The position numbers were made by a program, and so were the translations under genes. 64,000 nucleotides of DNA, taken from NCBI RefSeq assembly GCF_009914755.1, contig NC_060926.1. One strand, written 5' to 3'. Positions 19,133 through 48,047 of this stretch are shown piece after piece. The notes below the pieces were generated by a model, which was not told where the DNA came from, searched no databases, and saw only the letters and a list, made by a program, of their open reading frames with translations. How positions within the stretch are numbered: position 1 is the stretch's first letter; each line of letters opens with the position of its first letter. This stretch comes from the human T2T-CHM13v2.0 reference genome, Homo sapiens.

Positions 19133-19435
19133 TATTTATTTATTTATTTATTTGTTTATTGAGACAGAGTCTCACTCTGTCACGCAGGCTGGAATGCAGT
19201 GGTGGGATCTTGGCTCACTGCAACCTCCACCTCCCGGTTCAAGCAATTCTCCTGCCTCAGCCTCTTGAGCAGCAGCTGGGATTACAGGTACATGCCACCA
19301 TGCCTGGCTAATTTTTGTAGAGACCGTGTTTCACCACGTTGGCCAGGCTGCTCTTGAACTCCTGACCTCATGTATTCCACCCGCCTCGGCCTCCCAAAGT
19401 GCTGGGATTACAGGCGTGAGTCACCACGCCTGGCC
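19133..19435 (-). mobile_element. AluS-type SINE with (TTTA)n tail
   Basis: Reverse Alu dimer ending cctggcc, with a short deletion in the central A-rich linker. Confidence 0.95.
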
Positions 19436-20479
19436 TGTAAGCATAAAAAGCATATCTTCCCTCACTTATTCATTGGATAAAAGTGCTACGTTTTACCCAA
19501 TGAAAAAGTGAGGCAAGATATGCTGTAGAATTCCTCAACACTACTTTTCAGGTGAAATACAGAATATTCAAGAACCTCTTGCTCACTGGGTCACAGGGTT
19601 GAGTGATGAGTCCCTAAGTTGAACCACGACTTTTCACACCTAGCCTAGCATTATTTCTTCTCAACCAGACTGTCCTTATGTCCCAGTGATTGCAAATAAT
19701 AGTTTGTGCATTTGAGGGGTATATAGTTAACATGCTGATTCTCTGAAGGTTATAGAAAAAAAAAGCTTCATATTTTACTTTGTATAATGTCATTTTTGAG
19801 GTTCAAGGCATGAATAATAAGACTGAAAGAAAGATGCCATTGGAAATGGGAGGACATTTGGAGCAGTGACAAGATTGTCCAGCTATGCACTTCCCAGATT
19901 TTCACCTAAATGCACATTTACCACAATTCCCATTTTCTTTCAAGTCCCCCAGGAGTCCCTTTGCCAATGCAACCTACTCTTTCCCCAGCAAGCCTCACAT
20001 GTTTGAGTTAGGAGGGTTTGTCTCTGTGCTTCCCCCTGGGCTGACTCAGTTTTAGCTCTGATCTCCCTGCAAAATTAAAGGCTTAACTCCTGTGTCAGAG
20101 AGCAAGATTTTGGAAAAACACTTGGGAAATCAGAAAATTACACAACTCTGTTCAACAGCCAAGATACCCCTGCCCCCATCTTTACCATCTGTTCACTGCT
20201 TGTCCCCAGCAGCACAGGACCACCCAGGTGGGACACCTGCTTCATGCAGAGCCCCAGCACAGACAGCAGTGGGAGGAAGGGCTCTCTGCTTGAAGGGGTC
20301 ATATTTCAGGGAGAATGAAAGGTGACGGATGCTCTGATGAGGCCAAAAAGCATCCCACAGGCTATTCTCTGCCCAGCCTAAGCAAAGGACACTGCTGTCA
20401 GCACTGAGGAGACCCTCCAACAAAGGTACTGTAGCCCAGCAGTATCCATGGGGTTAGGTTCCAAGTGGATGCCTGAAAC

Positions 20480-22680: not shown

Positions 22681-22732
22681 TGCAAGAGAGGTTGCTGCTG
22701 TTTAGTCACACGTTTCCTCAATTAAATTTATT

Positions 22733-23047
<315 letters not shown>

Positions 23048-23933: not shown

Positions 23934-24728
<795 letters not shown>

Positions 24729-27699: not shown

Positions 27700-28230
27700 G
27701 TAACACCCTTGTATAATTCCCTCCCCTTGAGAGCAGATGTAACCTGAGACTTGTTTCTAGATGATAGAATATATCAAAGGTGATGGGATTGTTTCCCATG
27801 ATTATATTATATTGTACAGAACTTGGTCTTGGTAGCCTGGACTGAGAGGTTCTCCTACTGAGTTGAAGAAGTAAGCTATCATGTTATGAGAGGGCCTATA
27901 AGAGGTCCATGTGGTAAGGAACTGTGGGTGGTCTCTAGATCTCAGAGAGGATAAGCCAGGACCAGGGTGACAGCCCCAAGACAGCAGTCCTCCAGCTGCA
28001 AGGATATAAATTCTACCAATACGCCCATGATATATACAAATATACCAGTTCTGCCAGTATAACCACATGAGTTTAGAAGTGGACCTGAGGCTCCAGATAA
28101 GAACATAGCCTAGCCAGATTCTTGTGAGATCCAAAGCAGAGGACTGAGCTAAGCCATGCTCAGACTCCTGGCGCAGATAAACTATAAGGAACATGAATTG
28201 TTTTAACCTGTGGGTTTGTGGTGCTTTGTT
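27700..28230 (+). mobile_element. MLT1E/F-like MaLR LTR, 3' tip missing
   Basis: cctccccttgag...gacttgtttctag...ccatgtggtaaggaactg...ctaagccatgctcagactcctg...ttgttttaa...gtttgtggtgctttgtt. The usual ...aactaataca end is absent. Confidence 0.75.
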
Positions 28231-28328
28231 GACATTCCTGTTGTCTTGGCTAGGATTCTGGCTCACGTTTACTTTGAGAATCTCCTGCGAGCTCTTTTGT
28301 TCCCCAGTTCGCTCTTCTTCAAATTTGC
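28222..28328 (+). repeat. Segment A (107 bp), duplicated in inverted orientation at 30305-30410
   Basis: Its reverse complement matches 30305-30410 with about 7 differences. Confidence 0.97.
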
Positions 28329-28689
28329 CTGCCATAGGTTTCTTTTGAAAATGTAATCTTGATATGCAATCCTTCAATATCAAATGCATCAGTACCACCT
28401 TTTTGTATAGGATAAAGCCCATACTCCTCTACATATTGCAGAACGCCCTCTCCAGTTTGGTTCCACATTACCCTATGTTTCCTAACCTCTTGCTACCTCC
28501 TTCATGCACTGTTCATTCATTCTTTCTTTCAATCAACCGTGTACCTACATTTTGCCAGAAGCTGTTCTAGGCACTATGTATATGAAGCCTAAATAACAAT
28601 TTATCCCAAAATATGCCTCTAATTTAGTTGAAGGGACAGACAATTTAGTCAACAATCACAGTTCGGTATAAAAATGTCTATGGGTTGAA

Positions 28690-28900
28690 GAATAAAATGG
28701 TAAAATTCCAATTCCACCACTCACTATTTCTGGGAATTTAGGGAAGTCAACTTTTGTCTCTGCACCTCAGCATTCTCATATGTAAATACTGGAAATAACA
28801 TCTATTTCATATCATCATTTTTGAGAAGGATTAAACTAGATGATATAAATCAAGTTATTAGCATAATGCTGAATACTGAGTGAGAAACCAGTATTAGTTA
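28690..28900 (+). mobile_element. MIR SINE
   Basis: tctctgcacctcagcattctcatatgtaaatactggaaataac...aggattaaactagatgata. Confidence 0.7.
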
Positions 28901-29239
28901 AATTTTGATATTCAGTTTGTGTTTAATTTATCAACACTTTAAAGGGAGGAAAGACAAGAATCACAGAGGAGGTGGCAGGGCAGAGTGCCCAGGAGGAGTA
29001 AGCCTTGGGGTGATCATGGGAGGATGATGGAATTTGACCCAAATGTGGAGTTTTCAGGCAGGAGGACAACGTGTGTGAAGATTCAGATGCCTGAAATAGC
29101 AGGATGTGTTGCAGACACTAATGACGGGGTTTGTCTGAGAAACAGGTGCATGTGTGAGAATTCATTCAAAGCCCCTTTCATTTTTTTCCAACATTCATCT
29201 TTACTCTCCAAGAGGAAAAAAAGAAGAAAACTTAATCTG

Positions 29240-29440
29240 ATGCTTACTATGTGCCAGACATTGAAATGCTTTACGCATATGAATTTACGGAATCCTACCC
29301 AATGAGGTAGGTGGTACTCTCATCTCCATGTTGCAGATGAAGAAAGTGAAACCAAGAAAGGATGAATATTTTTCCCAAGGTCATAGAACTACTAACCGGT
29401 AGTCTGAGATTTGATCCCAAGCACTAGGAGAGCTCTTTAC
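29240..29440 (-). mobile_element. MIR SINE overlapping the outer end of the left inverted-repeat arm
   Basis: tgcttactatgtgccagac...ttgcagatgaagaaagtgaaacc...cccaaggtcatag...gatttgatccca. Confidence 0.8.
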
Positions 29441-29703
29441 CACATGTATAGGTGCTTCCCAAGTCCACCAAAACTAACAGATTCAAGTAAACACACAAGC
29501 AAGAAGGCAAACAGAGACACAATTAATTGGGTGGATGAAATCATTAAAGTTTACTTAGGCAAGCCCCTTCAACACAAGTGAGAAAACTGAAACTCAGAAA
29601 GGTTATGACTTTTCTTTCCTACTGAAGCTAATAAGTGGCAGTTCTAAGGGTAGATTCTAAATATCTTCAGCAACATAAATGAACTGGTACTTATGTCAGT
29701 GAC

Positions 29704-29752
<49 letters not shown>

Positions 29753-30307
29753 TCTCATGTATATGTATATATATTCTCATGTATATGTGTATATATTCTC
29801 AAGTATATGTATATACATATATGTATATATACACACCTATATACACACACATATATATATAGTCACTGACATAAGTACCAGTTCATTTATGTTGCTGAAG
29901 ATACTTGGAATCTACCCTTAGAATGCTTAGAACTGCCACTTAGTAGCTTCAGTATGAAAGAAAAGTCATAACCTTTCTGAGTTTCAGTTTTCTCACTTGT
30001 GTTGAAGGGGCTCACCTAGGTAAACTTTAATGATTTCATCCACTCAGTTAATTGTGTCTCCGTTTGCCTTCTTCCTTGTGTGTTTACTTGAATCTCTTAG
30101 TTTTGGTGGACTTGGGAAGCATCTATACATGTGGTAAAGAGCTCTCTCAGTGCTTGGGATCAAATCTCAGACTACCAGTTAGTAGTTCTATGACCTTGGG
30201 AAAAATATTCATCCTTTCCTGGTTTCACTTTCTTCATCTGCAACATGGAGATGAAAGTACCACCTACCTCTTTGGCTAGGATTCCATAAATTCATATATG
30301 TAAAGCA
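29267..30307. repeat. Long inverted repeat: arms 29267-29714 and 29851-30307, 136-bp microsatellite spacer
   Basis: Manual alignment gives ~23 substitutions and one 9-bp indel (cattctaag) over ~448 bp, about 95% identity. Confidence 0.98.
29704..29861. repeat. Compound (TA)n/(CA)n microsatellite with 3 copies of atatattctcatgtatatgt
   Basis: Read directly from the sequence. Confidence 0.95.
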
Positions 30308-30479
30308 AATTTAAAGAAGAGCAAACTGGGGACAGAAAGAGCTCTCAGGAGATTCTCAAGTAAACGTGAGCCAGAACCCTAGCCAAGACAACAGGAATGT
30401 CAACAAAGCATATTCCTGTATATGTATACATACATATATACACACAGTATGCATGCACACATATGTGTGTTTATATATT

Positions 30480-30541
30480 TATGTGCATCAAGAATATTCA
30501 TTTAGTACACTATGTGTGTCAAGAATATTCATTTAGTACAG
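30480..30541. repeat. 31-bp tandem duplication
   Basis: tatgtgcatcaagaatattcatttagtacac / tatgtgtgtcaagaatattcatttagtacag. Confidence 0.92.
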
Positions 30542-30889
30542 TAAATAATTTGTTGGGCCTTTGCCCCCTGAAACTATAGGCTTGGCATGTAAAATCAATC
30601 AGACGTGCCCTTCCAGTTGAATAGCATTGAGAAAGCAGCCCCTCACACCACTTTGGAACATACACAAGGAGTGTTAGATATAATATTCCTTGTTAATAGC
30701 TTACAGTCTTACTGAACAAAAAGAATATTTAAAATGAGTAAAATAGAGGCTACTAATGTATATACTAAAAAGTGATCATTGCAAAATACAGATAATCAAT
30801 TCAAAAGGCCCAAAGTCATCAGACATCACTGTTTCTGTGTTTTACTTTCCAAAACACACTTCTAAATGTGTCTGGCTGTCACACATAAT

Positions 30890-44766: not shown

Positions 44767-45534
<768 letters not shown>

Positions 45535-47715: not shown

Positions 47716-48047
<332 letters not shown>

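What the first reader, a model, noticed from the sequence alone, without database searches (positions are those of the whole stretch)
29267..30307. ~1-kb foldback: 450-bp inverted arms at ~95% identity around a TA/CA microsatellite
Seen: the arms differ by ~23 substitutions and one 9-bp slippage indel, and include two perfect runs of more than 50 bp. They consist of decayed MIR plus unique DNA. Established: independent MIR copies are far more diverged than 5%, so this is a true local inverted duplication and not two insertions. Long, closely spaced inverted repeats are unstable (fork stalling, spacer inversion, deletion) and, if transcribed, give long dsRNA for ADAR, Dicer or MDA5. Inference: a primate-age rearrangement that could be a non-Alu dsRNA or endo-siRNA source, or a fragile site.
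Basis: partly seen in the sequence, partly recalled or inferred. Interest (0 to 1): 0.8.

Follow-up and report, generated by a model that had tools for sequence, protein, structure and literature searches.

The report
Old inverted duplication inside a microsatellite
A stretch of human chromosome 2 was copied backwards into a neighbouring TA/CA microsatellite some tens of millions of years ago, leaving a real but apparently idle 1-kb hairpin-forming repeat in a gene desert.

Summary
Arms 29267-29714 and 29851-30307 align over 448 columns with 23 substitutions (94.9%), one 9-bp indel and perfect runs of 57 and 53 bp.

Only two full-length copies exist in the whole assembly, both at this locus, so it is not a transposon family.

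Positions 30305-30410 are an inverted copy of 28222-28328, which lies 941 bp upstream of the left arm.

The derived copy is therefore the reverse complement of 28222-29714 minus an internal 941 bp. It sits inside a TA/CA array of 22-bp units. Its junctions are a self-complementary (TA)n tract, a TGC microhomology and a blunt return.

A MIR-like repeat runs unbroken across the outer edge of the left arm, so the left copy is the source.

Best reading: a fold-back or template-switch inverted duplication primed at the (TA)n tract. K2P distance is 0.051, roughly 20-25 Myr, and decay looks neutral.

I found no evidence of transcription or function. No Rfam hit reaches threshold, and no gene is annotated in the window. 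It is a new member of a known kind and of low to moderate interest. No primate outgroups, pangenome or expression data were available.

The parts
28222..28328 (+). Distal part of the source segment. It is copied in inverted orientation at 30305-30410.
   Evidence: 4 substitutions and 3 one-base indels over 107 columns. E = 1.8e-35 and 8.6e-35 in the whole-genome searches.
28329..29269 (+). 941 bp of source DNA that is missing from the inverted copy, either skipped during copying or deleted later.
   Evidence: alignment blocks; junction views. The segment is single-copy in the assembly (1 of 1 match is itself), so it is not a young insertion into the left copy.
29227..29420 (+). Old MIR-like interspersed repeat that runs unbroken across the outer edge of the left arm at 29267-29270.
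   Evidence: 2 of 8 dispersed loci (L011, L012) align continuously from 29227/29230 to 29419/29354. The other 6 start inside the arm.
29267..29714 (+). Left arm, the ancestral source copy. Its last 11 nt lie in the (TA)7 tract.
29704..29717 (.). (TA)7 tract next to the left arm. Proposed annealing site for the fold-back or strand switch (junction J1).
   Evidence: Palindromic symmetry ends inside the TA tracts: the left side continues (CA)12, while the reverse complement of the right side continues (TG)4.
29715..29850 (.). 136-bp spacer: (CA)12, (TA)6, three 22-bp units starting at 29750, 29772 and 29794, then a TA/CA tail.
   Evidence: (period 22, 3.3 copies, 94% matches).
29851..30307 (-). 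Right arm, the derived inverted copy of 29267-29714. It carries a 9-bp tandem insertion at 29924-29932.
   Evidence: second full-length match, minus strand.
30305..30410 (-). Extension of the derived copy: an inverted copy of 28222-28328, joined to the right arm through a TGC microhomology (junction J2).
30411..30480 (+). Continuation of the TA/CA array. Its first bases form a fourth copy of the 22-bp unit motif, immediately after the end of the inverted copy (junction J3).
   Evidence: the motif TATTC.{1,4}GTATATGT occurs 4 times on both strands of the window, at 29750, 29772, 29794 and 30411; colinear alignment with 29793-29854.

Best explanation
A single-locus inverted duplication made by fold-back priming, or equivalently a replication template switch, at a self-complementary (TA)n tract. 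The ancestral locus read: unique DNA (28222-29703), then (TA)7(CA)12(TA)6, then an array of 22-bp TA/CA-rich units.

A 3' end lying in a downstream (TA)n tract of that array arose at a stalled fork or a resected break. It annealed to the (TA)7 tract next to the unique DNA, on the same strand or on the sister strand. It was then extended leftwards and copied 29703 down to 29270 as a reverse complement.

Synthesis then continued at 28328 down to 28222. This happened either by a second jump at a TGC microhomology during the same event, or because a full 1.5-kb copy later lost 941 bp. Finally the strand rejoined the array exactly at the start of the next 22-bp unit (30411).

The result is source, 136-bp spacer, then a 549-bp inverted insert. 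Since then both copies have decayed by ordinary point mutation to about 5% divergence.

The structure is a passive relic in unannotated intergenic DNA. It would form a hairpin of about 430 bp if it were ever single-stranded or transcribed, but nothing indicates that this is used.

Shown: the anatomy, the uniqueness, which copy is derived, and the junction sequences. Inferred: the mechanism, the single-event order, the date, and the neutrality.
For: 1. The arms and their differences are reproduced exactly.

2. A whole-assembly search finds 9 matches, of which 2 are full length and both lie here. The other 7 are 54-94-bp matches to arm positions 32-129 at 75-85% identity. The inner 261 bp of the arm has 2 of 2 matches at this locus.

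3. The right copy continues with an inverted copy of 28222-28328. The missing 941 bp is single-copy old DNA.

4. A dispersed repeat aligns continuously across the outer edge of the left arm in 2 of 8 loci. The right copy breaks off there and joins unrelated sequence. The left copy is therefore the source.

5. J1 lies in the TA tracts: the symmetry stops where (CA)12 meets (TG)4. J2 has the exact microhomology TGC.

6. J3 abuts the only other copy in the window of the 22-bp unit motif (4 hits, at 29750, 29772, 29794 and 30411). Removing the insert would therefore leave (TA)5 directly before a unit, which is the context of unit 1.

7. The decay looks neutral. There are 27 substitutions in 555 columns, 20 transitions and 7 transversions. 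They split 12 and 11 between the two arm halves. The longest identical run is no longer than chance predicts (P = 0.72), so there is no sign of recent arm-to-arm conversion.

8. Mechanistic precedent comes from four papers:
- The four-point template-switch model, in which type 3-2-1-4 creates an inverted repeat (passages of PMC5453318).
- Fold-back formation of human inverted duplications with a spacer and short inverted sequences at its edge (abstract of PMC3907307).
- Fold-back templated inverted insertions at breaks that use microhomology (abstract of PMC11724301).
- More than 6,000 template-switch hairpins in primates (abstract of PMC10710096).
Against: No outgroup or population data could be consulted. 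The empty ancestral site, the date and the single-event order are therefore inferences.

The published short template switches involve tens of bp (PMC5453318 passages), whereas this copy is 549 bp drawn from a 1.5-kb source.

The similarity between the spacer tail and 30410-30464 scores 42. Shuffles give 20.6 +/- 4.2 (maximum 39 in 300), but the reverse-complement control scores 38. Outside the unit motif, low complexity weakens that argument.

J3 shows essentially no microhomology.

Polarisable differences lean towards the right copy being more derived: 7 of 8, made up of CpG kept on the left 4 versus on the right 1, plus 3 of 3 sites where five or more dispersed copies agree with the left arm (p = 0.07). 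Simple equal-rate decay does not predict this. It might reflect error-prone synthesis at birth, which would make the event younger than the distance suggests.

Absence of function is argued only from the absence of annotation.
Confidence: 0.6

Rival explanations
1. Two-step origin. A larger palindrome with 1.5-kb arms (28222-29714 copied in full) formed first. The right arm later lost 941 bp by replication slippage or end joining at the TGC microhomology, a deletion that breaks symmetry and stabilises the palindrome.
For: The junction has 3 bp of exact microhomology within an imperfect AAAT(TT)GC match. [quoted passage not shown] The two parts of the right copy show similar divergence: 4 of 107 columns and 23 of 448.
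Against: Nothing separates this from a second template jump within one event. Equal divergence fits both, and complex multi-jump events are typical of replicative rearrangements. This rival differs from the best explanation only at junction J2.
Confidence: 0.3
2. An inversion with staggered breaks, or a switch with an inverted spacer (four-point type 3-1-2-4). The microsatellite between the arms was itself inverted, and the arms are the duplications that flank the inversion.
For: PMC5453318 passages describe events that create an inverted repeat around an inverted spacer, 23% of their high-confidence set. The spacer is low-complexity, so its ancestral orientation cannot be read from this genome.
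Against: The three 22-bp units in the spacer and the fourth unit after the insert are all in the same plus-strand orientation, with 0 minus-strand hits. This is what a spacer that was never inverted predicts.
Confidence: 0.05
3. A functional hairpin-RNA locus or an active fragile site. The foldback is transcribed and yields long dsRNA for ADAR, Dicer or MDA5, or it is a present-day hotspot of breakage and structural variation.
For: If transcribed, either strand would form 432-433 arm-to-arm base pairs (95.5-95.7% of arm nucleotides), with uninterrupted helices of 57 bp on the plus strand or 123 bp on the minus strand. This is close to the 'long and highly paired' class (more than 300 bp and more than 96% paired) that numbers only 2,018 of 5,134,754 predicted human dsRNAs (PMC11838218 section 10). 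The structure meets the stem >30 bp, identity >85%, spacer <2 kb criteria for 'recombinogenic' long inverted repeats, as quoted in PMC4319165.
Against: No gene is annotated in the window or within 100 kb upstream (hub annotation). 0 of 24 Rfam matches reach threshold, and all are TA/CA-type miRNA models hitting the microsatellite. In PMC11838218, 88% of such long paired structures are intergenic and 74% are unedited, which the authors attribute to lack of transcription. Lengthening a spacer from 12 to 100 bp lowers inverted-repeat recombination 300-fold in yeast (PMC10164571). Fork stalling in eukaryotic cells was not frequent with a 52-bp spacer (PMC7999016). The substitution pattern looks neutral.
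Confidence: 0.07
4. A palindromic non-autonomous DNA transposon, two independent MIR insertions, or an assembly fold-back artefact.
For: Long inverted arms and MIR-like content superficially resemble a MITE-type element.
Against: Only 2 full-length copies exist in 3.1 Gb, both here. The flanks show no target-site duplication. The repeat continues through the left edge. Dispersed copies are 66-85% identical, not 95%. A sequencing or assembly chimera would give identical arms, not 27 substitutions with a 20:7 transition-to-transversion ratio plus indels.
Confidence: 0.01

Closest known systems
Template-switch mutations under the four-point model, type 3-2-1-4 (Loytynoja and Goldman 2017, PMC5453318; Monttinen et al. 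2023, PMC10710096)
   Same: A reverse-complement copy of nearby sequence is written into the nascent strand and creates a hairpin-forming inverted repeat in one event. The source lies within about 1.6 kb of the insertion point. [quoted passage not shown]
   Different: The copied fragment is 549 bp from a 1.5-kb source and has an internal 941-bp skip. The published set concerns clusters of tens of bp (passages). The ancestral state could not be checked here.
Fold-back inverted duplications and fold-back templated insertions at breaks (Hermetz et al. 2014, PMC3907307; Yu et al. 2024, PMC11724301)
   Same: There is a spacer between the direct and inverted copies that corresponds to the fold-back loop. 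A short self-complementary sequence sits at the spacer edge, here (TA)n. The far end is captured with little or no microhomology.
   Different: Hermetz's events are very large, terminal and pathogenic, with a dicentric intermediate. Yu's are mostly 5-34 bp in yeast (abstracts). This one is interstitial, sub-kilobase and fixed in the germ line.
PATRRs (palindromic AT-rich repeats) of human chromosomes 11, 22, 8 and 17
   Same: Palindromic DNA several hundred bp long with a TA-rich centre.
   Different: PATRRs are near-perfect, lack a substantial spacer and are more than 90% AT (PMC7999016 passages). Here the arms are 62% AT, the same as the window average of 61%. They are 94.9% identical and separated by 136 bp.
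Inverted Alu pairs and long, highly paired predicted dsRNAs (dsRNAscan, PMC11838218)
   Same: Intergenic, more than 300 bp, nearly fully paired if transcribed.
   Different: The arms are a local duplication of mostly unique DNA, not two insertions of a repeat family. According to that preprint, most of its 2,018 long paired structures form between inverted LINEs. Pairing here is 95.5-95.7%, just under their 96% cut-off.

Membership tests
Template-switch / fold-back inverted duplication | The inserted segment is the reverse complement of nearby sequence on the same chromosome. | tested here: met
   29851-30410 is the reverse complement of 29714-29267 joined to 28328-28222.
Template-switch / fold-back inverted duplication | (Micro)homology or self-complementarity at the switch points. 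| tested here: met
   J1 lies in (TA)7/(TA)5 tracts. J2 has TGC. J3 has 0-1 bp, which is compatible with end joining.
Template-switch / fold-back inverted duplication | One copy is in ancestral context and the other is an insertion. | tested here: met
   The MIR-like repeat is continuous across the left edge. The insert is flanked on both sides by the same 22-bp-unit array.
Template-switch / fold-back inverted duplication | Absent from the ancestral state or an outgroup (empty site). | not testable with these tools
   No primate genomes are held. The answers to the own-genome searches state that the assembly has no relatives here.
DNA transposon / MITE with long terminal inverted repeats | Multiple dispersed copies and a target-site duplication. 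| tested here: not met
   2 of 9 genome matches are full length and both lie at this locus. No duplication is visible in the flanks.
PATRR | More than 90% AT, near-perfect palindrome, no sizeable spacer. | tested here: not met
   Arms are 61.8% and 62.1% AT, identity is 94.9%, and the spacer is 136 bp.
'Recombinogenic' long inverted repeat (Wang and Leung criteria as quoted in PMC4319165) | Stem >30 bp, identity >85%, spacer <2 kb. | tested here: met
   448 bp, 94.9% and 136 bp. The criteria were read. Meeting them shows potential only, not actual instability.
Long, highly paired dsRNA (dsRNAscan class) | More than 300 bp, more than 96% paired, and transcribed. | tested here: inconclusive
   432-433 bp and 95.5-95.7% of arm nucleotides paired, which is borderline. 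Transcription cannot be tested with these tools.
Known miRNA families (mir-3149, mir-297, mir-466 and others) | Rfam gathering score reached. | tested here: not met
   The best hit is 44.6 bits against a gathering score of 100. 0 of 24 matches pass, and all lie on the TA/CA microsatellites.

The most novel reading that the evidence does not exclude
The foldback is more than a relic. In some tissue or disease state, for example read-through or derepressed intergenic transcription, it would yield a non-Alu, non-LINE hairpin of about 430 bp at 95% pairing. That would put it among the few endogenous RNAs long and perfect enough to engage MDA5, ADAR1 or Dicer. Alternatively, it still acts as a structural-variation hotspot in human populations. 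A second, more modest reading is that it represents a wider, uncatalogued class of kilobase-scale germ-line inverted duplications seeded at (TA)n microsatellites.
Probability: 0.07. Interest if true: 0.55.

Novelty: new member of a known kind. Interest (0 to 1): 0.25.

Why it matters
As it stands the locus is a clean natural example of how a self-complementary (TA)n tract can seed a sub-kilobase inverted duplication in the primate germ line. All three junctions are still legible after about 5% divergence.

It extends the template-switch and fold-back picture from tens of bp to about 0.5-1.5 kb. It also shows that a 450-bp, 95%-identical inverted repeat with a 136-bp spacer can persist for a long time.

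It would matter more if it were transcribed, as a rare long non-Alu dsRNA, or polymorphic, as a fragile palindrome. Neither could be examined here.

Tried and rejected
- **Transposon, two MIR insertions or assembly artefact.** Rejected by the whole-assembly searches.
- **The 941 bp as a young insertion into the left copy.** Rejected. The segment is single-copy, and the MIR-like repeat crosses the junction.
- **Arm-to-arm gene conversion.** No support. The longest identical run is within chance and the substitutions are spread evenly.
- **A direct duplication of the microsatellite tail flanking the insert.** The alignment beats shuffles, but the reverse-complement control scores nearly as high (42 against 38). 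I rely on the unit motif instead.
- **Rfam.** Only sub-threshold microsatellite-type miRNA matches.
- **Asymmetry of derived changes between the arms.** 7 of 8 polarisable sites are derived in the right copy, p = 0.07. This is not significant and is left as a note.
- **GAP-Seq palindrome paper (PMC4057610).** It concerns tumour-cell palindromes and gave nothing on this locus.
- **Supplement of PMC11838218.** It is listed as a single PDF and I did not open it. Its table of long paired dsRNAs, which might list this locus, was not seen.
- **Literature on this locus.** My searches targeted the class of structure, not this locus. I cannot say whether the locus itself is in print.

Full report

- The repeat finder reports arms 29267-29648 with 29926-30307 (382 nt, 95%) and 29642-29714 with 29851-29923 (73 nt, 97%).
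- A gapped local alignment joins these into 448 columns with 23 substitutions (94.9%) and one 9-bp indel. The extra bases are 29924-29932 in the right arm. Perfect runs reach 57 and 53 bp.
- The 136-bp spacer (29715-29850) reads (TA)7(CA)12(TA)6, then three 22-bp units (TRF: period 22, 3.3 copies, 94% matches), then a TA/CA tail.
- Folded as RNA, 996 nt give -751.8 kcal/mol against -228.9 +/- 7.3 for 20 shuffles (z = -71).
- In the whole 64-kb window, 5 inverted pairs of 80 nt or more lie within 5 kb. This is the only one at 90% or better. The other four are 77-83% identical and lie in Alu-sized masked stretches.

**Is it a repeat family?** No.

- A search of the whole 3.1-Gb assembly with the left arm gave 9 matches. 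Two are full length and both lie at this locus.
- The other 7 are 54-94-bp matches to arm positions 32-129 at 75-85% identity.
- The inner 261 bp of the arm has only the two local copies (2 of 2 matches).

The arms are therefore an old dispersed repeat fragment plus unique DNA, duplicated locally. I recognise the fragment as MIR from memory, since no repeat library was available.

I searched with the DNA just right of the right arm (30290-30560). This returned an inverted match on the other side of the left arm, at window 28222-28336 (90% identity, E = 1.8e-35). The 5 other non-self matches of that call are short hits at 76-82% identity to the microsatellite part.

- Alignment shows that 30410-30305 is the reverse complement of 28222-28328, with 4 substitutions and 3 one-base indels in 107 columns. 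The reciprocal search confirmed this (93% identity).
- The derived copy is therefore the reverse complement of 28222-29714 lacking an internal 941 bp (28329-29269).
- At that internal junction both parental sequences end in TGC, within an imperfect AAAT(TT)GC match.
- The 941 bp is single-copy in the assembly (1 of 1 match is itself), so it is not a young element inserted into the left copy.

**Which copy is the source?** Sensitive BLAST of 29170-29470 against eight dispersed MIR-like loci gave 10 alignments. Two loci, L011 and L012, align continuously from 29227/29230 through the arm edge at 29267-29270 to 29419/29354. The multiple alignment shows the same. The remaining 6 loci begin inside the arm. 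The right copy ends at that point and joins the 28328 segment. The left copy is in ancestral context and the right copy is the insert.

**Where the insert sits.**

- The palindromic symmetry ends inside TA tracts. The left side reads GTCAGTGAC(TA)7(CA)12, and the reverse complement of the right side reads GTCAGTGAC(TA)5(TG)4.
- The far end of the insert (30410) abuts TATTCCTGTATATGT.
- The motif TATTC.{1,4}GTATATGT occurs only four times on both strands of the window: at the three spacer units (29750, 29772, 29794) and at 30411.
- The unique part of the insert (29862-30410, 549 bp) is thus embedded in one TA/CA array.
- Without the insert, (TA)5 would directly precede a unit, as (TA)6 precedes unit 1.
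- A colinear alignment of the spacer tail with 30410-30464 scores 42. Shuffles give 20.6 +/- 4.2 (0 of 300 reach it), but the reverse-complement control scores 38. That part of the argument is weak.

**Mechanism (inferred).** These junctions fit a fold-back or template switch. A 3' end in a (TA)n tract anneals to the self-complementary (TA)7 next to the unique DNA and is extended backwards. It jumps once, or the copy is later deleted, at TGC. It then rejoins the array.

- In the four-point notation of Loytynoja and Goldman this is the 3-2-1-4 order, which creates an inverted repeat (31% of their high-confidence events; passages).
- Their events involve tens of bp.
- Fold-back with a spacer loop and short inverted sequences at its edge is the accepted origin of large human inverted duplications (abstract of PMC3907307).
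- Fold-back templated inverted insertions at breaks, with polymerase delta synthesis at one end and end joining at the other, are documented in yeast (abstract of PMC11724301).
- Template switching has produced more than 6,000 hairpins in primates (abstract of PMC10710096).

**Age and mode of decay.**

- Over all 555 aligned columns there are 27 substitutions, 20 transitions and 7 transversions. K2P distance is 0.051.
- With long-term catarrhine rates of about 1.0-1.2e-9 per site per year (recalled, not from a call), this gives roughly 20-25 Myr. A generous bracket is 15-45 Myr.
- The substitutions split 12 and 11 between the arm halves. A longest identical run of 57 is expected by chance (P = 0.72). 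There is no sign of conversion.
- Among polarisable sites, CpG is retained on the left at 4 sites and on the right at 1. At 3 of 3 sites where five or more dispersed copies agree, they agree with the left arm. The 7-to-1 excess in the right copy has p = 0.07. It could hint at error-prone synthesis at birth but is not significant.

**Function.**

- No gene is annotated in the window or within 100 kb upstream (hub annotation).
- Rfam gives 24 matches at E of 1 or less. None reaches its gathering score (best is mir-3149, 44.6 against 100), and all fall on the TA/CA tracts.
- If transcribed, either strand would form 432-433 arm-to-arm pairs, 95.5-95.7% of arm nucleotides.
- This is just under the '>300 bp and >96% paired' class of the dsRNAscan preprint. 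That class numbers 2,018 of 5,134,754 predictions, is 88% intergenic and is 74% unedited (PMC11838218, section 10 read in full).
- The structure meets the quoted 'recombinogenic' criteria: stem >30 bp, identity >85%, spacer <2 kb (PMC4319165 passages).
- However, lengthening a spacer from 12 to 100 bp reduces recombination 300-fold in yeast (PMC10164571 passages). Frequent stalling in eukaryotic cells was not seen with a 52-bp spacer (PMC7999016 passages).
- It is not a PATRR. The arms are 62% AT against more than 90% for PATRRs.

**Verdict.** This is a real, unique and well-preserved inverted duplication whose anatomy points to fold-back priming at a (TA)n tract inside a microsatellite. It is a new member of a known kind. 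The dsRNA and fragility ideas remain untested and are, on present evidence, unlikely. Primate orthologues, pangenome variation and expression data were outside the reach of the tools and would settle the open points.

Noticed in passing
window 30480-30540: A 31-bp unit repeated twice in tandem (93% matches) lies directly after the TA/CA tract that follows the inverted copy.
   Followed up: no
window 22772-22999 / 24394-24622, 19312-19440 / 22728-22856, 45209-45311 / 47755-47857: Four further inverted pairs of 96-136 nt at 77-83% complementarity, with 1.4-3.3 kb between the arms. All lie in Alu-sized masked stretches and are probably ordinary inverted Alu pairs.
   Followed up: no
window 27700-28230: An old interspersed repeat with 42 dispersed matches scored, at 66-83% identity. 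One match reaches window position about 28230, within 10 bp of the distal end (28222) of the duplicated segment.
   Followed up: partly
window 29275-29276, 29426-29427, 29560-29561: Six of the 23 arm substitutions form three adjacent pairs. By my own estimate about one such pair is expected by chance. I did not test this formally. They could be multinucleotide mutations or small alignment shifts.
   Followed up: no
both arms, 8 polarisable sites: Derived states lie in the right (copied) arm at 7 of 8 polarisable sites (p = 0.07). This might reflect error-prone synthesis when the copy was made, or chance.
   Followed up: partly
window 29560-29640: By eye this stretch contains a second MIR-core-like sequence, but it has no dispersed matches in the genome search (2 of 2 matches are local). 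The resemblance is unconfirmed.
   Followed up: partly
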